Of a DNA stretch of 64,000 nt, positions 2,626-51,816 are shown piece after piece. Made by a program: the position numbers and the translations under genes. Position 1 is the stretch's first letter, and every line of letters begins with the position of its first letter. Source of the DNA: an uncultured Actinomycetes bacterium (GTDB taxonomy: Bacteria; Actinomycetota; UBA4738; HRBIN12). The stretch spans positions 1,685,138 to 1,749,137 of the forward strand of contig OY969934.1 of the NCBI GenBank assembly GCA_963704725.1. The letters are read 5' to 3'. The notes under the pieces were generated by a model. That model had not been told where the DNA came from. It did no database searches and saw only the letters and a program-made list of their open reading frames with translations.

Positions 2626-2706
2626 GGTCGGATGCTATCCCGGCGCCGTTCGCTCACGTCGAGGGCTTGCGCCCACTCGAACGTATGTTCTATCCTCATC
2701 GCTTCG

Positions 2707-4713
2707 ATGGCCGACCAACTCTTCGAGATCGCCCGGCGCACGTTCGACACCCCCGAGTTCCGGGGGATGGAGTTCATCGAGACCGATTGCAGGACCATCA
2801 TCAACCGCGTCCCCGGCTCGTACCTCCCGTTCAACTGGACGATCAACCCGTACCGGGGATGCTCGCATGCGTGTAGTTACTGCACGTCCGGCGATACCCC
2901 GGTCCTGATGGCCGATGGCCGGACGAGGCCCATCGCGAAGGTCGAGGTGGGGGATCGGATCTACGGGACCGTGCGCCGGGGTCGGTACCGGAGGTACGTC
3001 ACGACGCCGGTACTCGCCCATTGGTCCACGGTGAAGCCCGCCTATCGGGTCACACTCGAGGACGGCACCGAGCTGATCGCGAGCGGCGACCACCGGTTCC
3101 TCACGGAGCGAGGATGGAAGCACGTCACCGGGAAGGGTTCGGGCCGCGAGTGCCGGCCCTTCCTGACCACGAACAACGAGCTCCTGGGCGTCGGCGGCTT
3201 CGCCGTAGCGCCTGCTGAGGATGACGACTATCGGCGCGGCTACCTCACGGGCATGATCCGTGGCGACGGACAGATCGGCTCGTACGCGTACCCGGCAAGG
3301 AACGGACGGTCCCGAGCAGTGCATCGATTCCGGCTCGCTCTCGTGGACGGCGAGGGGCTCGATCGGGCGCGCATCTATCTGTCCCGGGAGGGAGTCGAGA
3401 CGACGCCGTTTCAGTTCCAGCAAGCGACCGGGCGGCATCGGCGGATGGGCGCTATCCGATCGCAGCGTCGGGCCGACGTCGAGCGGATCCGCGAGGTCAT
3501 CGCCTGGCCGGCCCGATCCACGAACGCTTGGCGGAAGGGGTTCCTCGCCGGCGTCTTCGACGCCGAGGGGAGTTTCAGTGGCACCCTCCGCATCGCGAAT
3601 TGCGACCCGCAGATCCTCGGCACGACGACTGCGTGTCTGGACGCGCTCGGCTTCTCGCATCGGTTGGAGACGACCATCGACCGCAAGGGGCTGGCCTACG
3701 TCCGGCTCCTCGGCGGTCTCCGAGAGGTCCTCCGCTTCTTCCACACGGTCGATCCCGCCATCACGAGGAAGCGAGACATCGCGGGGATCGCGATCAAGAG
3801 CGATGCGCCACTCCGGCTCGTCTCGGTCGAGCCGCTCGATCTCGACCTCCCCTTGTACGACATCACCACCGGGACCGGGGACTTCATCGCGGACGGCGTG
3901 GTGAGCCACAACTGCTTCGCGCGGCCCACGCACACGTTCCTCGACATGAACGCCGGGAGCGACTTCGAGCGCAAGATCGTGGTGAAGGTCAACGCGCCCG
4001 ACGTGCTGCGCCGGCAGCTCGCCGCCAAGCGCTGGAAGGGCGAGGGCATCGCCATGGGGACCAACACCGACCCGTACCAGCGGGCCGAGGGGCGCTACCG
4101 GTTGATGCCGCGGATCGTGGAGGCCCTCGCGGACTTCCGGAACCCGTTCTCGATCCTGACCAAGGGCACGCTGATCCTGCGCGATCTCGACCTGCTCGTC
4201 GACGCGGCGCGGGTGGCCGACGTCGCCACCGCCTTCTCCATCGGCACGCTGGACGAGGACGTGTGGCGGCGGACGGAGCCCGGCACGCCGCACCCGCGCA
4301 AGCGGATCGAGGCCGTCGCGGCTCTCAACGCCGCCGGGATCCCGTGCGGGGTCCTCATGGCGCCGATCCTGCCGGGGATCAGCGATCACCCCCGTCAGCT
4401 CCGGGAGGTCGCCCGGGCGGCGATCGACGCAGGCGCGACCCACGTCTCCCCGATCCTCCTGCACCTGCGGCCGGGTGTCCGCGAGGAGTTCATGCCCTGG
4501 CTGGCCGAGCACTACCCGGATCTCGTGGAGCGATACGAGGCGATGTACCGGACGCCGTACGCGTCGCCGGCGGATCGCAAGCGGGTCGGATCGACCGTCG
4601 GGAGCATCGTCCGGTCGCTCGGAGGCACCCGGCGGGAGCGGGCGGCTCCGCATCGGTGGTCCGGCCGGGGAGACGGCGGCGGCGGGTCCGGGGAGCAGCT
4701 CAGCCTCGTCTGA
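2707..4713 (+). CDS. radical SAM protein of the SplB / Rv2578c-like family (COG1533), interrupted by an in-frame intein
   Basis: ORF 2632..4713. N-extein ends RGCSHACSY and C-extein resumes CFARPTHTFLDMN, reconstituting the family CxxxCxYCFAR Fe-S motif. Start taken at MADQLFEIARR (2707); 2632 is the alternative. Confidence 0.85.
   Translation: MADQLFEIARRTFDTPEFRGMEFIETDCRTIINRVPGSYLPFNWTINPYRGCSHACSYCTSGDTPVLMADGRTRPIAKVEVGDRIYGTVRRGRYRRYVTTPVLAHWSTVKPAYRVTLEDGTELIASGDHRFLTERGWKHVTGKGSGRECRPFLTTNNELLGVGGFAVAPAEDDDYRRGYLTGMIRGDGQIGSYAYPARNGRSRAVHRFRLALVDGEGLDRARIYLSREGVETTPFQFQQATGRHRRMGAIRSQRRADVERIREVIAWPARSTNAWRKGFLAGVFDAEGSFSGTLRIANCDPQILGTTTACLDALGFSHRLETTIDRKGLAYVRLLGGLREVLRFFHTVDPAITRKRDIAGIAIKSDAPLRLVSVEPLDLDLPLYDITTGTGDFIADGVVSHNCFARPTHTFLDMNAGSDFERKIVVKVNAPDVLRRQLAAKRWKGEGIAMGTNTDPYQRAEGRYRLMPRIVEALADFRNPFSILTKGTLILRDLDLLVDAARVADVATAFSIGTLDEDVWRRTEPGTPHPRKRIEAVAALNAAGIPCGVLMAPILPGISDHPRQLREVARAAIDAGATHVSPILLHLRPGVREEFMPWLAEHYPDLVERYEAMYRTPYASPADRKRVGSTVGSIVRSLGGTRRERAAPHRWSGRGDGGGGSGEQLSLV
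2881..3912 (+). mobile_element. intein (344 aa) with LAGLIDADG-type homing endonuclease domain
   Basis: Block A CTSGDTPVLMADG at the N-terminal splice junction; block B-like SGDH; two LAGLIDADG-like motifs (GYLTGMIRGDG, KGFLAGVFDAEGSF); C-terminal DFIADGVVSHN followed by +1 Cys. Coordinates from ORF arithmetic (aa 84-427 of the 2632 ORF). Confidence 0.85.
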
Positions 4714-4742
4714 CGCGGGACATCGGCTACCCTTCCGCACCG

Positions 4743-5453
4743 ATGCTTGGCATGGACCGGATCCTCGAGCTGCAGGAGCTCGATACCTCGATCGGCCGGC
4801 TGACGCACCGGCGCGAGCTGCTCGAGGCGGGGGAGGAGCTGTCCGCCGTCCGCACGGAGGCGGAAGAGGCCGAGTCGCGCCTCGGGGAGATCCGGCTGGC
4901 GCTCGACGCCGTCGCCCGCGAGTCCACGCGCCTGGAACACGAGATCGAGACGGTCGGCGCCAAGGCCGCGGCCGAGGAAAAGCGCATGTACGACGGCAGC
5001 ATCGCGAACGCCAAGGAGCTCGAAGCCCTCCAGCACGAGATCCAGAGCCTCAAGGAGCGGCGTGGCCGGGCCGAGGACGAGCTCCTCGACCGGATGGTGA
5101 CTCGCGAGGACCTCGAGGCCAGGGCCGTGACGGCTGACGCCGAGCTCACCGCGATCCGCGAGCGGATGCAGGCGGTCGGCGGCGACGCGGTGCGCGAGCT
5201 CGAGGAGATCGAGGCCGGCTTGGCGGAGCAGCGGTCGGCTCGCGGCACGCTGGCCGCCGAGCTCGACGAGGAGCTCCTCGAGCTGTACGAGGACCTCCGG
5301 CGTCAGAAGAAAGGTGTCGGGGCCGCGGCGATCGTCGACGGCGTCTGCCAGGCGTGCCACGAGAAGCTGTCCGCGGTCGAGCTCGACAAGCTGAAGCACA
5401 CCGACGGCGTCAAGAGGTGTGAGTACTGCCGGCGGATCGTCGTCTTCGCGTGA
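4743..5453 (+). CDS. zinc-ribbon domain protein (COG1579-like coiled-coil with C-terminal CxxC...CxxC)
   Basis: C-terminal in-frame part of track ORF 3528..5453, starting MLGMDRILELQ; long coiled-coil then VCQACHEKL...RCEYCRRIVV. The upstream 400 aa of that track ORF is shadow. Confidence 0.8.
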   Translation: MLGMDRILELQELDTSIGRLTHRRELLEAGEELSAVRTEAEEAESRLGEIRLALDAVARESTRLEHEIETVGAKAAAEEKRMYDGSIANAKELEALQHEIQSLKERRGRAEDELLDRMVTREDLEARAVTADAELTAIRERMQAVGGDAVRELEEIEAGLAEQRSARGTLAAELDEELLELYEDLRRQKKGVGAAAIVDGVCQACHEKLSAVELDKLKHTDGVKRCEYCRRIVVFA

Positions 5454-5917
5454 TCGTCGCGACCGACGGGGCCGCGCGCGGCAACCCGGGGCCCGCCGGG
5501 ATCGGCGCCGTCGTCACCGGTGAGGACGGGGAGGTCCTGGCGGAGATCGCGGAGGGCATCGGGGTGGCCACGAACAACGTGGCCGAGTACACGGCGGTGA
5601 TCCGGGGGCTGGAGCGCGCGCGCGAGCTCGGGGCGTCGCAGGTGCTGGTCCGCTCGGACAGCCGGCTGATCGTGGAGCAGCTCTCGGGCCGCTTCAAGGT
5701 GAAGAACCCCACGCTGCAGCGGCTGCACACGCAGGCTCGGTCGCTCGCCGCCGGGTTCGATCGGATCCGGTTCGAGCACGTCCCGCGGGAGCGGAACACC
5801 GACGCGGACCGGCTGGCGAACGCCGGTGTCGACGCCTGGCTCGCCGGCGAGGGCGCGACGTGGTCCCGCCCGGCGCCCCCGTCTCGCCTGTGGGGGGGCG
5901 ACGACGAGGGCCGCTGA
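5450..5917 (+). CDS. rnhA: ribonuclease H (RNase HI family)
   Basis: MIVATDGAARGNPGPAGIGAVV... with NNVAEYTAVIRGLE and C-terminal NTDADRLAN; GTG start overlaps the upstream stop (GTGA). Confidence 0.85.
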   Translation: MIVATDGAARGNPGPAGIGAVVTGEDGEVLAEIAEGIGVATNNVAEYTAVIRGLERARELGASQVLVRSDSRLIVEQLSGRFKVKNPTLQRLHTQARSLAAGFDRIRFEHVPRERNTDADRLANAGVDAWLAGEGATWSRPAPPSRLWGGDDEGR

Positions 5918-5940: not shown

Positions 5941-6340
5941 GGAGGAGTCGGCCGGGCGGCCGCGGGCGGAAACGCTCGAGGAAAGTCCGGGCTCCGAAGG
6001 GCAGGGTGCTGGGTAACGCCCAGGCGGGGCGACCCGCGGAAAGCGCCACAGAGAACAGACCGCCGCGCGAGCGGTGAGGGTGAAACGGTGAGGTAAGAGC
6101 TCACCAGCGGACCGGGTGACCGGCCCGGCTCGGCAAGCCCCACCCGGAGCAAGGCCAAGCAGGGAGCGGTCGTCGGGCTCCGGCAGCGATGCCGCCCCGG
6201 CGAGAAGGACGGCCCGTCCGTGCTCCCGGGTCGGCCGCACGAGGGCGTCGGCCCCGGGGTCTCGTAAGGGACCCAGAGAGATGGTCGCCGGGCGGTCGCG
6301 AGACCGCCGCACAGAACCCGGCTTACAGGCCGGCTCCTCC
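5941..6340 (+). ncRNA. rnpB: RNase P RNA, bacterial type A
   Basis: Universal P4 strands present: GAGGAAAGTCCGGGCTCC near the 5' end and ACAGAACCCGGCTTA near the 3' end; also GGTAACGCC, AGGGTGAAA, GGTAAGAGC, CACCCGGAGCAAGGCCAA. P1 pairs GGAGGAGTCGGCC (5941-) with GGCCGGCTCCTCC (-6340). Ends are +/- a few nt. Confidence 0.9.
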
Positions 6341-6348
6341 ACCTCGCG

Positions 6349-39139: not shown

Positions 39140-39310
39140 CGGGGCCGGGCCGATCCCGACCCCGCGAAGAGGGAAGCCGGTGAGAATCCGGCGCGGTCGC
39201 GCCACTGTGACCGGGGAGCGAACCCGACGGAACCACTGGGCCCACGGGCCCGGGAAGGGTCGGGGGAGCGCAGATCCGGGAGCCAGGAGACCTGCCTCGA
39301 GGGCCCCACG
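39140..39310 (+). promoter_or_regulatory. cobalamin (B12) riboswitch
   Basis: GGGAAGCCGGTGAGAATCCGGCGCGGTCGCGCCACTGTGA core and the B12 box AGCCAGGAGACCTGCC (about 39281-39296); immediately upstream of an AAAGGAG RBS and the GTG start of a BtuF-like gene. Boundaries approximate. Confidence 0.8.
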
Positions 39311-45335: not shown

Positions 45336-46178
45336 ATGGCGGGCTACGCCAACCCCGACGCGCTCGTCGAGACCGACTGGCTCGAGGACCACCTCGAGGA
45401 CGAGAACGTCCAGGTGATCGAGGTGGACGAGGACACGACGGCTTACGACAAGGGCCACATCCGCGGCGCGGTCGGCTGGAACTGGAGCACCGACCTGCAC
45501 GCGGAGGTGGGCCGGGAGTACCTCGGCCAGCGGGAGCTCGCGGACCTGCTCTCGCGCGCCGGCGTCGGCGAGAGCACGACGGTGGTGCTCTACGGAGGGA
45601 ACAACAACTGGTTCGCCGCCTACGCCTACTGGATCCTGAAGCTCCGCGGCTTCGACGCCGTCCGTCTGCTGAACGGCGGCCGGAAGAAGTGGGAGTTGGA
45701 GAGCCGGGAGCTGACGCAGGACGCCCCCTCGCCTACGCCGACCGGCATCGTCGTCTCCGGATCCGAGCGCGCCGGTATCCGGGCGCTGCGCGACGAGGTG
45801 TTGGCCAAGCTCGGCGGAGCGGCGTTCGTGGACGTCCGGTCTCCGGAGGAGTACCGGGGGGAGAAGCTCGCCCCCGATCACCTGCCGCAGGAGCAGTCGC
45901 AGGTGCCCGGCCACATCCCCGGCGCCGCGAACATCCCCTGGGTCAAGGCGGCGAACGAGGACGGCACGTTCAAGTCGGCGGACGAGCTCCGCGCGCTCTA
46001 CGAGCCCGAGGGCGTGACCCCCGACACGGAGGTCATCGCGTACTGCCGGATCGGGGAGCGGAGCTCGCACACGTGGTTCGCGCTCACCGAGCTGCTCGGG
46101 TACGAGAACGTCAAGAACTACGACGGCTCGTGGACCGAGTACGGGTCGCTGGTCGGCGTCCCGGTCGAGAAGGGCTGA
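45336..46178 (+). CDS. thiosulfate sulfurtransferase (tandem rhodanese domains)
   Basis: Track ORF 45276..46178; start taken at second ATG (45336), 8 nt after GAGGAGG. Active-site loop CRIGERSS. Confidence 0.9.
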
Positions 46179-46247
46179 GCGCGCCAGGGCGCTCCTCGGG
46201 GGGCCCGTCCTCCGGGGTGCGGGGAAAGGATGCCCCCTCTCCCTCCG

Positions 46248-46280
46248 AAGGGGCGGGTGCCGTTCGGCACCCGCCCCTTT
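46248..46280. repeat. perfect palindrome (14-bp arms) in the rhodanese-sufB intergenic region
   Basis: AAGGGGCGGGTGCC-GTTCG-GCACCCGCCCCTT; no U-tract on either strand, so a protein operator (for example SufR-type) or bidirectional hairpin rather than a classical terminator. Confidence 0.4.
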
Positions 46281-46408
46281 CCCCTCGGCGCTGCCCCGCC
46301 CGGCGCCGTGCGCCTGTGCTCGAATTCCGACCCCTCGGATGGACTTACCTCGTCGCCGTGGGTATCCTCGATGGGAGGAGTGAGGGCCGCTCCTCGGGAA
46401 GGACCACC

Positions 46409-47821
46409 GTGGCCGTCACCCAGGAAGAGCATCTCCGGGAGCTCAGCAAGGGCTACCGCTTCGGCTGGAAGGACCCGTCCCACTCGGTCTTCACGCCGAA
46501 GATGGGCCTGAGCGCCGCGGTGGTCGAGGAGATCTCGGCGCTGAAGGACGAACCCGACTGGATGCGGAAGTACCGGCTGAAGGCGCTGAAGCACTTCGAG
46601 CAGCGCCCCATGCCGTGGTGGGGGGCCGACCTGTCGGGGATCGACTTCGACGATATCTACTACTTCATCCGCTCGACCGAGAAGCAGGCGCAGAACTGGG
46701 ACGAGCTGCCCGACGACATCCGCGGGACGTGGGACAAGCTGGGGATCCCGGAGGCGGAGAAGAAGTTCCTGGGCGGGGTCTCGGCGCAGTACGAGAGCGA
46801 GGTCGTCTACCACAAGATCAAGCAGGAGCTCGACGACATGGGCGTCCTGTTCGCAGACATGGACACGGCGCTCCGCGACCACCCCGACATCGTCAAGGAA
46901 TACTTCGGGACGATCATCCCGCCCAACGACAACAAGTTCGCCGCGCTGAACTCGGCGGTGTGGTCGGGGGGATCGTTCATCTACGTCCCGCCCGGCGTGC
47001 ACGTCGACATCCCGCTGCAGGCGTACTTCCGGATCAACGCGGAGGCGATGGGGCAGTTCGAGCGGACGATGATCATCGCGGACGAGGGCAGCTACGTGCA
47101 CTACGTCGAGGGCTGCTCGGCCCCGATCTACACGCGCGATTCGCTCCACTCGGCGGTCGTCGAGATCATCGTGAAGAAGGGCGCCCGCGTCCGCTACACG
47201 ACCATCCAGAACTGGTCGAACAACGTCTACAACCTCGTTACCAAACGCGCGGCAGCGTACGAGGACTCCGTGATGGAGTGGATCGACGGCAACATCGGCT
47301 CGAAGGTGACGATGAAGTACCCGTCTATCTACCTGCTCGGCAAGGGCGCCCGGGGCGAGGTCCTCTCAGTGGCGTTCGCCGGTGAGGGGCAGCACACGGA
47401 CGCCGGCGGCAAGGCGATCCACGCCGCGCCGTTCACCACCTCGATCATCAACAGCAAGTCGGTGAGCAAGGGCGGCGGGCGCACCGGGTACCGAGGGCTC
47501 GTCCGCATCGAGCCGGGTGCGCACCACGCGAAGTCAATGGTCCGCTGCGACGCGCTGATCCTCGACGAGATCTCGCGCTCGGACACCTACCCGTACGTCG
47601 AGGTCGAGGAGCAGACCGCGCAGCTCGGCCACGAGGCGTCGGTCGCCCGGATCGGCGAGGACCAGCTCTTCTACCTCATGAGCCGTGGGCTGTCCGAAGC
47701 CGAGGCATCGGCGATGATCGTGAACGGCTTCATCGAGCCGATCACCCGCGAGCTGCCCATGGAGTACGCCGTCGAGCTCAACCGCCTGATCGAGCTCCAG
47801 ATGGAAGGCGCGATCGGCTAG
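46409..47821 (+). CDS. sufB: Fe-S cluster assembly protein SufB (intein-free)
   Basis: In-frame C-terminal 470 aa of track ORF 45689..47821 from GTG 46409 (RBS GGGAAGGA); conserved SufB sequence throughout. Confidence 0.95.
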
Positions 47822-48130: not shown

Positions 48131-49321
48131 TCACGGTGGACCTCGGTCCTCCAGCCGCGACCCATCCGGCCGGAAGAACGCCGGGCGCCCGTCGACGAGC
48201 TCGAGACGGAACCCGCCGGGCCGATGGACCAGCCGGTGGTGACGGCGGCACAGCAGAATCAGGTTCTGGATCGCGGTCGGACCGCCGTCGGCCCAGTGGA
48301 CCACATGATGAGAGTCGCACCACGTGTGAGGGCGTTCGCAGCCGGGGAACCGGCACCGGCGATCTCGAACCACCACGGCGCGCCGCATCGACGGCGGCAC
48401 CACGGGAGTCCTTCGTCCCACGTCCAGCGGCTCGGACCGTCCGGACAGCACCACACGGGTGACCGACGCGTCGCAGGCAAGTCGCCGAGCGGTCTCGACC
48501 GAGACGGGTCCGACGTCGTCGAGCTCGCTCGGGCCGGCCGCGGCGCCTGTCAGGGCGTCGGCCGGGAGCGTCACGGTGACGTGTGGTCGCTCGCCCGCCA
48601 CGCGGGGACGGTCGGCCAGGTCAAGCCACTGCCGGCAGATCTCGACCAGGGCGTCCGCGCGGCGCTGGGCGGGCGTCCGCTCGTCCTCGGGCCCTCGCGA
48701 TCGTGACTCGGCGTCGAGCACGGCTCGAAGCGCCGTGAGCAGGGTCTCACCGCCCTCGGGGTCGAGATCGAAGTCGCCCCGGACCATCCCGAGGAACGTC
48801 GGCGAGGCATGAAGTCGCCGTCGCGCGTGAAGCGCTTCGTCCCCGTCCCTCGCCTGCTCCCGCTCGACGATCTGGCGCCAATGCGCGGCGACCCGCTGCA
48901 GGGCCCCCGTCGAGTGGATCCGGGCGGCTTCCACGAGCTGGGCCTCCGAACGCGCGAACGCCTCTCGGTCGAGGTCGTGCGCCGTGGTGAGCACGCGCGC
49001 CGCGGAGAGCGACAGCTCGCCGTCCTCGAGCGCCCGCCGGGTCACCGGCATGTCTTCGAGCGCCCGAGCGACGCGCACCGACTCGCGGGCCGTCCCCCAG
49101 GCGACGTTGAACCTCGCGTTGAGCCAGGAGGCCGAGGACAGGTTCCCGTCGCGCTCGAACAGCCGACGCCGCTCGATGTCCGCCAGCCGCCGGAGCCGTT
49201 CGACCTCGAGCAGCTCCATCGCCCGGTGCAGCTCGGCGAAGTCCTCCTCGATGACCGCGTCCGGCAGCTCGGCAAGGAGCTCGGACTGCAACGCATCGAT
49301 GGCCGAGCGAAGCTCGCTCAA
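48131..49321 (-). CDS. DUF222 plus HNH endonuclease domain protein (REP13E12-like family)
   Basis: 396 aa; C-terminal HNH motif CRFPGCERPHTWCDSHHVVHWADGGPTAIQNLILLCRRHH preceded by the family-typical N-terminal region. Confidence 0.85.
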   Translation of the reverse strand: MSELRSAIDALQSELLAELPDAVIEEDFAELHRAMELLEVERLRRLADIERRRLFERDGNLSSASWLNARFNVAWGTARESVRVARALEDMPVTRRALEDGELSLSAARVLTTAHDLDREAFARSEAQLVEAARIHSTGALQRVAAHWRQIVEREQARDGDEALHARRRLHASPTFLGMVRGDFDLDPEGGETLLTALRAVLDAESRSRGPEDERTPAQRRADALVEICRQWLDLADRPRVAGERPHVTVTLPADALTGAAAGPSELDDVGPVSVETARRLACDASVTRVVLSGRSEPLDVGRRTPVVPPSMRRAVVVRDRRCRFPGCERPHTWCDSHHVVHWADGGPTAIQNLILLCRRHHRLVHRPGGFRLELVDGRPAFFRPDGSRLEDRGPP

Positions 49322-49361
49322 CGACTGTCCCCCCTCCCGAACGTACGTTCGAGATCGTAGC

Positions 49362-49869: not shown

Positions 49870-51816
49870 GTGGACAACTTCCAGGAGAAAGTCGCCTTCA
49901 TCTGGTCGGTGGCCGACCTGCTCCGCGGCGACTACAAGCAGTCCGAGTACGGCAAGGTCATCCTGCCGCTGACCGTGCTCCGCCGTCTCGATTCCGTGCT
50001 GGAGCCGACCAAGTCGAAGGTCCTGAAGCGGCACAAGGAGCTCCAGGGCCGCCTCGAGAACGTCGAGCCGGTGCTCACGCAGATCACCGGGCACGGCTTC
50101 TACAACACGTCGCCCTTCACGTTCCGGACGCTCCTCGACGACCCGGACCACGTCGGCGAGAACCTGCGCCGCTACATCCTCGGGTTCGACCAGGGGACGC
50201 AGGACGTGATCGCCAAGTTCGAGCTCGAGGGCCAGATCCGGCGCCTCGAGCGCTCGAACCTCCTGTACATGGTCGTCTCGAAGTTCTGCGACATGGACCT
50301 GCACCCGGACCGGGTCTCGAACATCGAGATGGGCTACGTGTACGAGGAGCTCGTCCGCAAGTTCTCGGAGCTGTCGAACGAGACCGCCGGAGAGCACTTC
50401 ACCCCGCGCGAGGTCATCCGCCTGATGGTGAACATCCTGTTCGCCGGCGACCGGGACCTGCTGGCGAAGAAGGGCGCGATCGCCACGCTGTACGACCCGG
50501 CCTGCGGGACCGGTGGCATGCTGAGCGTGGCCGAGGACCACCTCCGGGCCCTGAACCCGGACGCCAAACTCCGCGTGTTCGGGCAGGAGCTGAACGCCGA
50601 GACGTACGCGGTCTGCCGCTCGGACATGATGCTGAAGGGCCAGGACGCGTCGAACATCTACTTCGGCAACTCGTTCACCGAGGACGGGTTGCCTGACTCC
50701 ACGTTCGACTACCTACTGGCGAATCCGCCGTTCGGCGTCGAGTGGAAGAAGGTCCAGGATCGGGTCCGCCAGGAGCACGACCGTGACGGCTACCAGGGGC
50801 GCTTCGGCGCCGGTTTGCCGAGGATCAACGACGGCTCGCTGCTGTTCCTGCAGCACATGATCTCGAAGATGAAGCCGCCCGAGAAGGGCGGCAGCCGCCT
50901 CGCCATCGTCTTCAACGCGTCGCCGCTGTTCACCGGCGCCGCCGGCTCGGGCGAGTCCGAGATCCGCCGCTGGATCATCGAGAACGACTCGCTCGAGGCG
51001 ATCGTCGGCCTGCCGGACCAGCTCTTCTACAACACCGGGATCTCGACGTACTTCTGGGTCCTCACGAACCGGAAGACCCCCGAGCGCCGGGGGAAGGTCC
51101 AGCTCGTCGACGCCCGCGAGCTGTGGACCAAGATGCGCAAGAGCCTCGGCGAGAAGCGCAAGGAGATCTCGAGCGAGCAGATCGAGGAGATCACGCGCCT
51201 GTGCGCGGAGGTCCAGGAGGGCGATCGCTGCAAGATCCTGCGGAACGAGGACTTCGGCTACCGCCGGATCACCGTCGAGCGACCACTCCGCGTGCGGTGG
51301 GAAGTGACCGAAGAGACGGCCGCGACGCTCGGCGCCTCGAAGGCGCTCACGAAGCTCGACGACGATGCTCGTGAGCGGCTGCTCGAAGCCGTCGATGGGC
51401 TGAAGGGAACGTCGACGACGGATCGGGACGTATTCGCGGAGAAGGTCGCTGGAGTGCTCGACGCCATGGGGAAGTTCGGCAAGCCAATGGAGAGGGCTAT
51501 CATCGAGGCGGCGACGGTCCGGGACCCCGAGGCCCCGCTCGTGACCGACAAGAAGGGGAATCCGGAGCCCGATCCTGAGCTGCGCGACTTCGAGAACGTG
51601 CCGCTCACCGAGGACGTCGGTGAGTACATGGAGCGCGAGGTCCTCCCCTTCGTCGACGCATGGGTCGACGAGTCGAAGACGAAGGTCGGGTACGAGATCC
51701 CGTTCACCCGGCACTTCTACGTGTACGTGCCTCCCCGGCCTCTCGAAGAGATCGACTCCGATATCAAGGCGCTCGAGCAGGAGATCCTCCAGCTCCTCCG
51801 CGAGGTAGCTGAGTGA
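49870..51816 (+). CDS. hsdM: Type I restriction-modification system, methyltransferase subunit
   Basis: 648 aa; N6-adenine MTase motifs DPACGTGG and NPPFG; GTG start. Confidence 0.95.
   Translation: MDNFQEKVAFIWSVADLLRGDYKQSEYGKVILPLTVLRRLDSVLEPTKSKVLKRHKELQGRLENVEPVLTQITGHGFYNTSPFTFRTLLDDPDHVGENLRRYILGFDQGTQDVIAKFELEGQIRRLERSNLLYMVVSKFCDMDLHPDRVSNIEMGYVYEELVRKFSELSNETAGEHFTPREVIRLMVNILFAGDRDLLAKKGAIATLYDPACGTGGMLSVAEDHLRALNPDAKLRVFGQELNAETYAVCRSDMMLKGQDASNIYFGNSFTEDGLPDSTFDYLLANPPFGVEWKKVQDRVRQEHDRDGYQGRFGAGLPRINDGSLLFLQHMISKMKPPEKGGSRLAIVFNASPLFTGAAGSGESEIRRWIIENDSLEAIVGLPDQLFYNTGISTYFWVLTNRKTPERRGKVQLVDARELWTKMRKSLGEKRKEISSEQIEEITRLCAEVQEGDRCKILRNEDFGYRRITVERPLRVRWEVTEETAATLGASKALTKLDDDARERLLEAVDGLKGTSTTDRDVFAEKVAGVLDAMGKFGKPMERAIIEAATVRDPEAPLVTDKKGNPEPDPELRDFENVPLTEDVGEYMEREVLPFVDAWVDESKTKVGYEIPFTRHFYVYVPPRPLEEIDSDIKALEQEILQLLREVAE

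What the first reader, a model, noticed from the sequence alone, without database searches (positions are those of the whole stretch)
2881..3912. Homing-endonuclease intein inserted inside the Fe-S cluster motif of a radical SAM enzyme
The 344-aa intein sits between Y and C of the family CxxxCxYCFAR motif (RGCSHACSY | intein | CFARP). The +1 nucleophile of the C-extein is therefore the third cluster-ligating cysteine, so the enzyme cannot bind its [4Fe-4S] cluster until splicing has occurred. The intein has all splicing blocks and two LAGLIDADG-like motifs. sufB in the same window, a classical intein host in mycobacteria, is intein-free.
Basis: partly seen in the sequence, partly recalled or inferred. 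Interest (0 to 1): 0.75.

Follow-up and report, generated by a model that had tools for sequence, protein, structure and literature searches.

The report
Known intein splitting a radical-SAM cluster motif
A self-splicing, mobile protein insert (an intein with a homing endonuclease) really does interrupt the iron-sulfur-binding motif of a DNA-damage-inducible radical SAM enzyme here, but this intein-carrying allele is common in Actinomycetota and NCBI already has a curated model for it, so this copy is an ordinary member of a known class.

Summary
Window 2881-3912 encodes a 344-aa class-1 intein with a double-motif LAGLIDADG endonuclease. It sits between Tyr58 and the third cysteine of the CX3CX2C motif (CSHACSY|intein|CFARP) of an Rv2578c-family ("SplB-like", COG1533) radical SAM protein.

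Removing it in silico gives a 324-aa protein colinear with intein-less orthologs (75-86% identity). All splicing residues and both endonuclease acidic residues are present. sufB in the window has no intein.

It is not new:
- The precursor passes NCBIfam NF038136, "intein-containing Rv2578c family radical SAM protein" (728 bits, cutoff 700).
- RefSeq already uses that name.
- A 2016 survey counted 48 SplB inteins in Actinobacteria.
- 18 of the 80 closest species-representative loci carry the intein at the identical site.

What I add:
- The host gene has a LexA (SOS) box conserved in 67 of 78 orthologous loci.
- Relatives of this intein (35-47% identity) occupy the same motif in other radical SAM families: DUF5131, B12-binding enzymes, and a QueE-like gene on a viral contig.
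- In the precursor the intein's Cys1 restores a formal CX3CX2C and forms a CXXC with Cys-3, as in the redox-trapped Pyrococcus abyssi MoaA intein.

Redox- or Fe-S-gated splicing is therefore plausible but untested.

The parts
2677..2692 (.). LexA (SOS) box TCGAACGTATGTTCTA, 15 nt upstream of the ATG. Its 3' end overlaps a possible -10 element (TATCCT).
   Evidence: One mismatch to TCGAAC-N4-GTTCGA. A perfect GAAC-N4-GTTC lies within 150 nt upstream in 67 of 78 orthologous loci. M. tuberculosis Rv2578c has a LexA ChIP-seq peak with RecA-dependent induction (PMC3381160).
2707..2880 (+). N-extein, 58 codons, MADQLFEIARR...NPYRGCSHACSY
   Evidence: The start is supported by homolog N-termini. tblastn shows 75-84% identity to the N-exteins of orthologs.
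2860..2880 (+). First two cluster cysteines of CX3CX2C (Cys52 and Cys56) plus the aromatic Tyr58 at position -1
   Evidence: C52, H54, C56 and C59 are invariant in intein-less orthologs. The Pfam Radical_SAM profile starts here in the spliced sequence.
2881..3912 (+). Intein, 344 aa, class 1, with an embedded LAGLIDADG homing endonuclease
2881..2919 (+). Block A (CTSGDTPVLMADG), with the Cys1 nucleophile
   Evidence: Cys1 is invariant in 18 of 18 genomic copies. TIGR01445 intein_Nterm scores 29.3 bits against a cutoff of 24.5.
3052..3105 (+). Block B (TLEDGTELIASGDHRFLT): S68-x-x-H71
   Evidence: H71 is invariant in 71 of 71 sequences and S68 in at least 90%. It aligns to block B of the gp41-1 and DnaB inteins.
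3196..3780 (+). Homing endonuclease domain (about intein residues 106-300)
   Evidence: The AF2 model shows the alpha-beta-beta-alpha-beta-beta-alpha fold twice. Foldseek matches I-DmoI with target TM 0.70-0.78 and rmsd about 3.5 A. Pfam LAGLIDADG_3 E = 2e-6.
3229..3273 (+). LAGLIDADG motif 1 (YRRGYLTGMIRGDGQ), catalytic Asp129
   Evidence: G120, Y121 and R127 are invariant and D129 is at least 90% conserved. D129 is present in 16 of 18 genomic copies.
3529..3573 (+). LAGLIDADG motif 2 (WRKGFLAGVFDAEGS), catalytic Glu229
   Evidence: W217, G220, A223, G224, A228, E229 and G230 are invariant in the 71-sequence alignment. It aligns to PI-PfuI motif 2.
3853..3912 (+). Blocks F and G (LYDITTGTGDFIADGVVSHN): Asp327, His343, Asn344
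   Evidence: D327, H343 and N344 are invariant in 18 of 18 copies. TIGR01443 intein_Cterm gives a weak match.
3913..3915 (+). Cys+1: the splice-junction nucleophile, and also the third [4Fe-4S]-ligating cysteine of the host
   Evidence: Invariant. This is position 73 of the PA0069 profile, where the C-extein match begins in every intein-containing homolog scanned; in NF038136 the C-extein match begins at profile position 335.
3913..4713 (+). C-extein (266 codons plus stop): the rest of the radical SAM partial TIM barrel
   Evidence: Pfam Radical_SAM. NF038135 rSAM_Rv2578c scores 424 bits on the spliced sequence. Identity to orthologs is 55-89%.

Best explanation
The insert is a canonical class-1 intein carrying a monomeric double-motif LAGLIDADG homing endonuclease. 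It lies in the gene for an Rv2578c-family radical SAM protein, an SOS-regulated 'SplB-like' enzyme of unknown substrate. The insertion point is exactly before the third cysteine of the CX3CX2C [4Fe-4S]/SAM motif.

Inferred mechanism:
1. The gene is transcribed from a LexA-repressed promoter.
2. The 668-aa precursor splices itself: an N-S acyl shift at Tyr58-Cys1, transthioesterification by Cys+1, Asn344 cyclisation assisted by His343, then an S-N shift.
3. Splicing yields the 324-aa enzyme with an intact CSHACSYCFAR motif, plus the free 344-aa endonuclease.
4. The endonuclease cuts intein-less alleles at the conserved DNA that encodes the motif, and the intein is copied in by recombinational repair (homing).

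The element is primarily selfish. It persists because it sits at a site the host cannot change. This copy is one ordinary member of a large, already catalogued allele class in Actinomycetota.
For: Shown here:
- Exact in-frame boundaries and all catalytic residues are present.
- NF038136 is passed at 728 bits against a cutoff of 700.
- The spliced sequence is colinear with intein-less orthologs of 323-336 aa at 75-86% identity.
- Of the 80 closest GTDB species loci, 62 are empty and 18 are occupied at the identical codon. Gene order (radical SAM, CT398-like Zn-ribbon, RNase H) is shared by empty and occupied loci.
- The closest relative, L001 (82% C-extein identity), lacks the intein.
- The intein model has pLDDT 95.1 and matches PI-PfuI (3.5e-15), TliVMA, PI-SceI and I-DmoI.
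- The endonuclease motifs are under purifying selection, with many invariant residues at about 60% overall identity.
- Intein GC3 is 0.858 against 0.947 for the C-extein and 0.93-0.97 for neighbouring genes.
- Intein and extein divergence are only weakly correlated (Mantel r 0.34), and in 11 of 153 pairs the inteins are more alike than the exteins.
- One relative has a 156-aa mini-intein at the same site (L048), a stage of the homing cycle.
- The same intein occupies the same site in the PA0069 family of other phyla.
- The LexA box is conserved in 67 of 78 loci.
Against: - Nothing was tested experimentally: neither splicing, nor endonuclease activity, nor LexA binding.
- Block B has Ser instead of the consensus Thr, and block F lacks the frequent His. 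Both variants are conserved across the family, so they are probably tolerated.
- The endonuclease domain is the least conserved part (mean pairwise identity 0.49, against 0.65 and 0.67 for the splicing halves). 2 of 18 genomic copies have lost a catalytic acid, so some copies are decaying and activity of this copy is not assured.
- The host's substrate is unknown. It fails the true spore-photoproduct-lyase model (21 bits against a cutoff of 400).
- The AF2 model of an intein-less ortholog was poor (pLDDT 65, cluster loop below 50), so the cluster geometry could not be examined.
Confidence: 0.9

Rival explanations
1. Conditional (regulatory) intein. Four cysteines meet at the N-junction of the precursor: Cys-7, Cys-3, Cys1 and Cys+1. 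This makes splicing depend on redox state or on metal or Fe-S availability. Under oxidising or cluster-damaging conditions, a Cys-3/Cys1 (CXXC) or Cys1/Cys+1 disulfide, or metal bound to the pseudo-motif CSHACSYC, would hold the oxygen-labile enzyme as an inactive precursor until conditions become reducing. This is compatible with a selfish origin. It is an added function, not an alternative identity.
For: - The sequence shows Cys-3-x-x-Cys1 and a complete CX3CX2C made with the intein's Cys1.
- The P. abyssi MoaA intein is reported to be trapped by a native Cys-3/Cys1 disulfide and released by reduction. The Pab PolII intein is reported to be blocked by a Cys1/Cys+1 disulfide (reviews PMC10663303 and PMC3922620).
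- The host gene is stress-induced, via the conserved LexA box.
- The same junction recurs in many radical SAM families.
Against: - The CXXC arrangement follows automatically from the insertion site, because Cys-3 is a cluster ligand in every radical SAM enzyme. It is therefore not evidence of adaptation.
- 62 of the 80 closest relatives do without the intein, so any regulation is dispensable.
- I could not retrieve the Pab MoaA sequence to confirm that its site is the same.
Confidence: 0.25
2. Domesticated or decaying passenger. The splicing function is intact, but the endonuclease of this copy no longer cuts. The intein would then be inherited only vertically, on its way to becoming a mini-intein or being lost.
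For: - The endonuclease domain is the least conserved region (0.49 against 0.65-0.67).
- 2 of 18 copies lack a catalytic acid, and a 156-aa mini-intein exists in L048.
- The Mantel correlation between intein and extein divergence is positive (r 0.34, p 0.002), showing a vertical component.
- No close copy was found in viral contigs; the best full-length match is 26% identical.
Against: - This copy keeps D129 and E229 and all residues that are invariant across the family.
- It has the modal length of 344 aa.
- Its closest relative is intein-free, while more distant relatives are occupied. That pattern fits recent gain or loss.
- The intein's GC3 is lower than the host's.
Confidence: 0.25
3. Not an intein: a native inserted domain or a non-splicing Hint/BIL-type domain of this radical SAM protein, or an assembly chimera.
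For: The Pfam Intein_splicing and Hom_end_hint matches are below their gathering scores.
Against: - Precise presence/absence at one codon in syntenic orthologs.
- All nucleophiles and the terminal His-Asn are invariant.
- The curated NF038136 cutoff is passed.
- The high-confidence model matches solved intein endonucleases.
- The same architecture is seen in many hundreds of independent assemblies.
Confidence: 0.02

Closest known systems
NCBIfam NF038136, 'intein-containing Rv2578c family radical SAM protein' (e.g. RefSeq WP_425734687.1 and WP_355592709.1, Micromonospora)
   Same: Same host family, same insertion codon, same intein lineage (60% intein identity to the Micromonospora profundi protein P0106). 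The window protein scores 728 bits against a cutoff of 700.
   Different: Nothing of substance. The organism is an uncultured Actinomycetota lineage; the closest species-representative C-extein is 82-89% identical, and the exact protein is not on record.
SplB (COG1533) inteins of Actinobacteria in the survey by Novikova et al., Mol Biol Evol 2016 (PMC4760082)
   Same: That survey lists SplB among the top bacterial intein hosts, with 48 inteins, all in Actinobacteria. This is that class.
   Different: The main text of that paper does not mention that the site lies in the Fe-S cluster motif (no occurrence of 'Fe-S' or 'MoaA', and no match for 'SAM' that refers to radical SAM). Its supplements were not available.
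Pyrococcus abyssi MoaA intein (Callahan et al. 2011, as described in reviews PMC10663303 and PMC3922620)
   Same: The host is an oxygen-sensitive radical SAM enzyme (that MoaA is radical SAM is established knowledge). A native N-extein Cys-3 forms a CXXC with the intein's Cys1 and gives a redox trap. The window junction has the same Cys-3-x-x-Cys1 arrangement.
   Different: Archaeal host, and a different radical SAM family. I could not obtain the sequence or the primary paper, so I infer but did not verify that its site is the same CX3CX2|C position. Redox control is demonstrated there and untested here.
Mycobacterial SufB, DnaB and RecA inteins
   Same: Actinobacterial class-1 inteins in stress-related proteins (Fe-S assembly, replication, recombination). 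Several are reported to be responsive to oxidative stress (titles and abstracts).
   Different: Different hosts and sites. sufB in this window has no intein.
PI-PfuI, PI-SceI and TliVMA intein endonucleases, and I-DmoI
   Same: Same two-domain architecture: a Hint splicing domain plus a monomeric double-LAGLIDADG nuclease. Foldseek E-values run from 3.5e-15 to 1e-10, and the target TM to I-DmoI is 0.70-0.78.
   Different: Only 12-20% sequence identity. At 344 aa it is smaller than PI-PfuI (454 aa) and PI-SceI (about 430 aa in the solved chains), so an extra DNA-recognition domain of their kind is unlikely.
Intein clustering at P-loops of ATPases (Novikova et al. 2016)
   Same: Inteins recur at a short, conserved cofactor-binding motif across non-orthologous proteins. 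Here, relatives of one intein lineage sit at CX3CX2|C in Rv2578c, PA0069, DUF5131, B12-binding and other radical SAM proteins, and in a QueE-like gene on a viral contig.
   Different: The motif is a different cofactor site (the Fe-S/SAM site). I found no paper in the held library that describes this pattern.

Membership tests
Class 1 intein | Cys, Ser or Thr at intein position 1 | tested here: met
   Cys1 (TGC, 2881-2883). Invariant in 18 of 18 genomic copies.
Class 1 intein | Block B TxxH motif with the conserved His | tested here: met
   S68-G-D-H71. His is invariant in 71 of 71 sequences. Ser replaces Thr throughout this lineage.
Class 1 intein | Block F Asp, penultimate His and C-terminal Asn; Cys, Ser or Thr at +1 | tested here: met
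   D327, H343, N344 and Cys+1 are all invariant.
Class 1 intein | In-frame insertion absent from orthologs, with exteins colinear once it is removed | tested here: met
   62 of 80 orthologous loci are empty at exactly this codon. The spliced sequence aligns at 99-100% coverage to 323-336-aa orthologs.
Class 1 intein | Hint fold | tested here: met
   AF2 pLDDT 95.1. Foldseek probability is 1.00 to PI-PfuI, TliVMA and PI-SceI. By sequence it also hits the gp41-1, DnaB and DnaE mini-inteins.
Class 1 intein | Autocatalytic protein splicing | not testable with these tools
   Needs expression followed by SDS-PAGE or MS.
LAGLIDADG homing endonuclease (monomeric, double motif) | Two LAGLIDADG helices, each ending in a catalytic acidic residue | tested here: met
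   ...MIRGD129G and ...VFDAE229G. Pfam LAGLIDADG_3 scores 28.2 bits against a cutoff of 22.5.
LAGLIDADG homing endonuclease (monomeric, double motif) | Pseudo-dimeric alpha-beta-beta-alpha-beta-beta-alpha fold | tested here: met
   Secondary-structure order in the model. I-DmoI target TM 0.70-0.78.
LAGLIDADG homing endonuclease (monomeric, double motif) | Site-specific cleavage of the intein-less allele, and homing | not testable with these tools
   Only indirect support: sporadic distribution, a conserved empty site, the mini-intein, and lower GC3.
NF038136, intein-containing Rv2578c family radical SAM protein | Whole-protein score at or above the curated cutoff of 700 bits | tested here: met
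   728.2 bits, E 8.3e-219.
Radical SAM superfamily (host) | CX3CX2C cluster motif at the N-terminus of the partial TIM barrel, and a Pfam PF04055 match | tested here: met
   The spliced sequence scores 62.2 bits against a cutoff of 29.5, from profile position 1. C52, C56 and C59 are invariant in orthologs. Weak fold matches are mostly to radical SAM enzymes, with some unrelated TIM-barrel enzymes, but the model confidence is low.
NF038135, Rv2578c family radical SAM protein (equivalog) | Score at or above 430 bits | tested here: inconclusive
   The spliced sequence scores 424.3 bits, just under the cutoff. An intein-less ortholog, P0122, scores 422.5. This lineage is a slightly divergent branch of the family.
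Spore photoproduct lyase (TIGR04070 / Pfam SPL) | Score at or above 400 bits (TIGR04070) or 27 bits (Pfam SPL) | tested here: not met
   21.1 bits and 19.2 bits. The label 'DNA repair photolyase' is a COG1533 name, not evidence that the protein is an SPL. A Streptomyces ortholog is reported as 17.6% identical to B. subtilis SplB.
Actinobacterial LexA (SOS) regulon | TCGAAC-N4-GTTCGA-type palindrome in the promoter region, conserved in orthologs | tested here: met
   Window 2677-2692 has one mismatch. A perfect GAAC-N4-GTTC is present in 67 of 78 loci. An M. tuberculosis ChIP-seq peak lies at Rv2578c/Rv2579. LexA binding in this organism is not testable.
Redox-trap intein (Pab MoaA type) | Cys at N-extein position -3 forming a CXXC with Cys1 | tested here: met
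   C56-S-Y-C1.
Redox-trap intein (Pab MoaA type) | Reversible disulfide that blocks splicing | not testable with these tools
   Needs in vitro splicing with and without reductant.

The most novel reading that the evidence does not exclude
The third cysteine of the radical SAM CX3CX2C motif is a superfamily-wide intein hot spot colonised by one related lineage of LAGLIDADG inteins. That much of the pattern is observed here: the lineage occurs in Rv2578c, PA0069, DUF5131/Gp37-Gp68, B12-binding and other radical SAM proteins, and in a QueE-like gene on a viral contig.

The untested part is this. Every such precursor carries Cys-7, Cys-3, Cys1 and Cys+1 together at the junction. These inteins could therefore act as redox-, metal- or Fe-S-gated switches that keep oxygen-labile radical SAM enzymes as zymogens. 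In this case the enzyme is an SOS-induced one.
Probability: 0.25. Interest if true: 0.6.

Novelty: already known. Interest (0 to 1): 0.3.

Why it matters
This copy adds nothing new to intein biology. It is a typical member of an allele class that NCBI annotates automatically and that a 2016 survey had already counted.

Its practical value is for annotation:
- The gene should be called as one 668-aa precursor starting at 2707.
- The start should not be placed at the internal Met of block A, as many database entries do.
- The mature enzyme is the 324-aa spliced product.

Three wider points could be followed up:
1. The host is a conserved SOS-regulon radical SAM enzyme of unknown function. An intein in its cofactor motif gives a natural on/off handle for studying it.
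2. The junction chemistry is the same as in the one radical SAM intein shown to be redox-trapped (Pab MoaA), so conditional splicing is directly testable.
3. Related inteins recur at this motif across radical SAM families, in parallel with the known clustering of inteins at ATPase P-loops. I did not find this described in the literature I could search.

Tried and rejected
- Exact look-up of the window protein with three alternative starts (2707, 2632, and the internal Met at 2908) found nothing on record. The source organism stays 'uncultured Actinomycetota'.
- A sequence search of the spliced host against the PDB gave no hit at E <= 1.
- The AF2 model of an intein-less ortholog, built from 25 close sequences, was poor (pLDDT 65.4, cluster loop below 50). 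The fold search on it gave only weak matches, mostly to generic radical SAM enzymes. I draw no functional conclusion from it.
- I tried to read Callahan et al. 2011 to verify the Pab MoaA insertion site. The paper is not held, and the reviews give only the Cys-3/Cys1 disulfide.
- The supplements of Novikova et al. 2016 are not held.
- The viral-contig scan for a phage-borne copy of this intein found no close relative. The best full-length match is 26% identical (L081). Most other hits examined are terminase or helicase inteins that share only block A, which the search pattern 'DTPVLMAD' had selected for.
- The sigma-70 promoter scan found nothing, as expected for a genome with 70% G+C.
- I considered dN/dS for the endonuclease domain and dropped it, because at about 56% amino-acid identity synonymous sites are saturated. 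I used per-region identity and residue conservation instead.
- The NJ tree of inteins from different hosts has no bootstrap support and long branches. I use it only as a hint.
- The 701-aa antisense ORF at 2635..4740 (-) is the shadow ORF usual in high-GC DNA, and I disregarded it.
Full report
**1. What is in the sequence.**

The + strand carries one uninterrupted ORF from 2632 to 4713. The most likely start is the ATG at 2707 (MADQLFEIARR...). The closest intein-containing homologs (P0001, P0007, P0087) and the intein-less orthologs begin at the equivalent residue. A regulatory palindrome also ends 15 nt upstream of that ATG (see section 5).

Read in frame, the DNA gives ...NPYRGCSHACSY, with TAC at 2878-2880. 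Then comes CTSGDTPVLMADG..., starting with TGC at 2881-2883, through ...FIADGVVSHN, ending with AAC at 3910-3912. Then CFARPTHTFLD..., starting with TGC at 3913-3915.

**2. It is an intein, and the host is a radical SAM enzyme.**

- Pfam finds Radical_SAM and LAGLIDADG_3 above their cutoffs, and weaker Intein_splicing and Hom_end_hint matches.
- In the unspliced protein the Radical_SAM match starts only at profile position 31. After in-silico removal of 2881-3912 it starts at position 1 and scores 62 bits. The insert therefore cuts the cluster-binding head of the domain.
- NCBIfam is decisive. The precursor scores 728.2 bits (cutoff 700) on NF038136, 'intein-containing Rv2578c family radical SAM protein'. 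The spliced sequence scores 424 bits on NF038135, 'Rv2578c family radical SAM protein' (cutoff 430).
- It fails the true spore-photoproduct-lyase model (21 bits against 400). The frequent database label 'DNA repair photolyase' is only the COG1533 name.
- The spliced sequence retrieves, as its best 120 hits among 5.8 billion proteins, contiguous proteins mostly 323-336 aa long at 75-86% identity and near-full coverage.
- In those orthologs C52, H54, C56, C59, F60, A61 and R62 are invariant.

**3. Anatomy of the intein.**

Alignments of 44 and 71 family members at about 60% identity, together with 18 genomic copies, show that the following residues are invariant or nearly so:
- Cys1.
- Block B S68-x-x-H71. 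Ser replaces the usual Thr across the whole lineage.
- LAGLIDADG motif 1, GYLxGMIRGD129G.
- LAGLIDADG motif 2, W217xxGFLAGxFDAE229G.
- Block F D327.
- H343-N344 and Cys+1.

This copy has all of them, and it has the modal length of the family (range 331-351 aa).

An AlphaFold model built on the family alignment is confident (mean pLDDT 95.1, pTM 0.90). It has beta-rich N- and C-terminal splicing halves around a helix-and-sheet core. Foldseek against the PDB returns intein endonucleases first: PI-PfuI at 3.5e-15, then TliVMA and PI-SceI. The core domain matches the monomeric double-LAGLIDADG enzyme I-DmoI with target TM 0.70-0.78. By sequence alone the PDB hits are the gp41-1, DnaB and DnaE inteins and PI-PfuI.

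**4. Presence/absence polymorphism at an orthologous locus.**

I scanned one genome per GTDB species with the C-extein. The 80 best loci are all Actinomycetota, mostly MAGs, plus Microbispora, Streptomyces and Streptacidiphilus.
- In 62 loci the N-extein abuts the C-extein. In 18 an intein sits at exactly the same codon.
- The gene order (radical SAM, CT398-like zinc-ribbon protein, RNase H) is shared by empty loci (L002-L005, L008-L010, L015, L018) and occupied loci (L006, L007). These are therefore orthologs, not paralogs.
- The nearest relative (L001, 82% C-extein identity) is empty. Occupied relatives at 77-79% extein identity carry inteins only 59-62% identical to this one.
- Across the 18 full-size copies (17 loci plus the window), intein and extein divergence correlate only weakly (Mantel r 0.34, p 0.002). 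In 11 of 153 pairs the inteins are more alike than the exteins.
- The intein's GC3 is 0.858, against 0.947 for the C-extein and 0.93-0.97 for neighbouring genes.
- One species (L048, Egibacteraceae) has a 156-aa mini-intein at the site that keeps blocks A, B, F and G.
- Two of the 18 copies have lost a catalytic acid of the nuclease.

Together this is the expected picture of a homing cycle: gain, vertical descent, nuclease decay and loss.

The empty-site DNA is conserved at first and second codon positions: GGNTGCNNNCAYNNNTGYNNNTAY|TGCTTCGCNCGNCCNACNCAC. That is a plausible target for the endonuclease.

**5. The host gene is an SOS gene.**

TCGAACGTATGTTCTA at 2677-2692 has one mismatch to the actinobacterial LexA box. 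A perfect GAAC-N4-GTTC lies within 150 nt upstream of the gene in 67 of 78 orthologous loci, whether or not they carry the intein. By my estimate, chance would give about 0.003 matches per locus.

In M. tuberculosis, LexA ChIP-seq found a peak at Rv2578c/Rv2579 with RecA-dependent induction (PMC3381160).

The precursor, and therefore the endonuclease, would be made when DNA is damaged. That coupling of a homing endonuclease to the SOS response is my inference, not a result.

**6. Is it known? Yes.**

- NF038136 exists specifically for this allele.
- RefSeq names Micromonospora proteins with it: WP_425734687.1 (688 aa) and WP_355592709.1 (596 aa).
- Novikova et al. 2016 list SplB/COG1533 among the top bacterial intein hosts, with 48 inteins, all in Actinobacteria (PMC4760082).
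- The intein alone retrieves 2776 proteins at E <= 1e-3 in the 90%-clustered database. The best 120 all show this same junction wherever a junction is present in the entry.
- It also retrieves 2207, 999 and 315 cluster representatives (50% identity) at E <= 1e-3, 1e-10 and 1e-30.
- The same intein, 57-60% identical, also sits at the same position in the sister PA0069 family in Proteobacteria and other phyla.

I found no paper in the held library that discusses the location of this site within the Fe-S motif. That is a limit of the library, not proof of novelty.

**7.

Among the 150 best 50%-identity representatives, 98 show the intein's N-end with at least 8 residues of N-extein. Of those, 83 have CX3CX2 immediately before Cys1. 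Most of the remaining 15 look like frameshifted or miscalled sequences.

At least 28 representatives have exteins that are not of the Rv2578c or PA0069 type. By Pfam they are:
- DUF5131/Gp37-Gp68 proteins, one of them fused to ParB_N.
- B12-binding radical SAM enzymes.
- Other Radical_SAM proteins.

Their inteins are 35-47% identical to this one over the full length. One of them (P0299) sits one cysteine earlier, at CX3|CX2C.

A viral contig (L081) encodes a QueE-like protein...RFQGCAVGCPF|intein|CDTRETW..., with a LAGLIDADG intein at the same position. That intein ends in Asp-Gln instead of His-Asn.

RadicalSAM.org places DUF5131, MJ0683-like proteins and spore photoproduct lyase in one megacluster (PMC9477430). 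By my own knowledge, not checked here, B12-binding enzymes fall outside that megacluster, so the spread is wider than one subgroup.

A rough, unbootstrapped NJ tree groups the Rv2578c and PA0069 inteins together, with three DUF5131-hosted inteins next to them.

So the radical SAM cluster motif behaves as an intein hot spot. This is comparable to the clustering at P-loops described for ATPases (PMC4760082).

**8. Mechanism and its limits.**

The splicing chemistry, the homing mechanism and the LexA control all follow from established knowledge of these families plus the residues seen here. None of it was tested.

But the precursor still reads CSHACSYC, with the intein's Cys1 in the third position.

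Two reviews report precedents (PMC10663303 and PMC3922620):
- The P. abyssi MoaA intein is held by a native Cys-3/Cys1 disulfide until it is reduced.
- The Pab PolII intein is blocked by a Cys1/Cys+1 disulfide.

Both arrangements are possible here. However, the CXXC is an automatic consequence of the insertion site, and most relatives lack the intein. I therefore rate a regulatory role at about 0.25.

**9. Verdict.**

The novelty claim is not: this is an ordinary member of a catalogued allele class. Interest is low to moderate (0.3). It rests on the untested conditional-splicing idea and on the recurrence of the site across the radical SAM superfamily.

Noticed in passing
window 49337-49352 and 48131-49321 (-): A second near-perfect LexA box (CCGAACGTACGTTCGA, one mismatch) lies 16 nt upstream of a minus-strand gene encoding a DUF222 + HNH endonuclease protein. 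To my recollection this resembles the mycobacterial REP13E12 family; I did not check that. A second predicted SOS gene in the window therefore also encodes a nuclease.
   Followed up: partly
P0106 (WP_355592709.1), P0014, P0037, P0044, P0051, P0064, P0091, P0100, P0117 and others: Many database gene calls for this allele, including a RefSeq protein named 'intein-containing Rv2578c family radical SAM protein', start at the internal Met of intein block A (..L-MADG..). They therefore lack the N-extein and two of the three cluster cysteines. This is a systematic start-site misannotation.
   Followed up: partly
P0272, P0281, P0302, P0375, P0390 (DUF5131); P0275, P0316, P0299 (B12-binding radical SAM); P0322, P0330, P0304, P0274, P0286, P0378 (other Radical_SAM): Inteins 35-47% identical to this one sit at the same CX3CX2|C position in other radical SAM families. 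P0299 instead has its intein before the second Cys (GCPYR|...HN|CNFC).
   Followed up: partly
L081:3001-~4020 (IMG/VR UViG_3300029288_006487): A viral contig encodes a QueE-like radical SAM protein with a LAGLIDADG intein before the third cluster Cys (..GCAVGCPF|CVDGDTPVLMADW...NGFLVDQ|CDTRETW). The intein ends in Asp-Gln rather than His-Asn.
   Followed up: partly
L048:2533-3000 (Egibacteraceae MAG): A 156-aa mini-intein at the same site has blocks A, B, F and G intact and the endonuclease domain deleted.
   Followed up: yes
P0082, P0111, P0102, P0081, P0076, P0063: The same intein (57-60% identity) occupies the same site in PA0069-family radical SAM proteins from Steroidobacteraceae and other non-actinobacterial sources. 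No intein-specific PA0069 model appeared among the NCBIfam hits.
   Followed up: partly
window 5944-6341 (+): Bacterial RNase P RNA, class A (225 bits), directly downstream of the RNase H gene at 5450-5917.
   Followed up: no
window 39140-39299 (+): Cobalamin riboswitch aptamer (90 bits).
   Followed up: no
window 45689-47821 (+): The mechanical sufB ORF is 710 aa, but the SufB homology starts only at about residue 378 (SufBD_N) and 447 (core). The true start is probably well downstream of 45689. There is no intein.
   Followed up: partly
window 49870-51813 (+): A type I restriction-modification methylase (HsdM_N + N6_Mtase) lies next to the DUF222/HNH gene.
   Followed up: no
P0112, P0067, P0103, P0018, P0057, P0087, P0076 (in alignment A1): Several ENA-derived homologs have C-exteins that turn into unrelated sequence partway through. 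This looks like frameshift errors in the assemblies rather than biology.
   Followed up: no
Streptomyces orthologs (literature): The Rv2578c-family gene is the attB target of the Samy phage integrase in Streptomyces (bioRxiv 10.1101/2025.02.27.640095). The same host gene is thus used by two unrelated kinds of mobile element.
   Followed up: no
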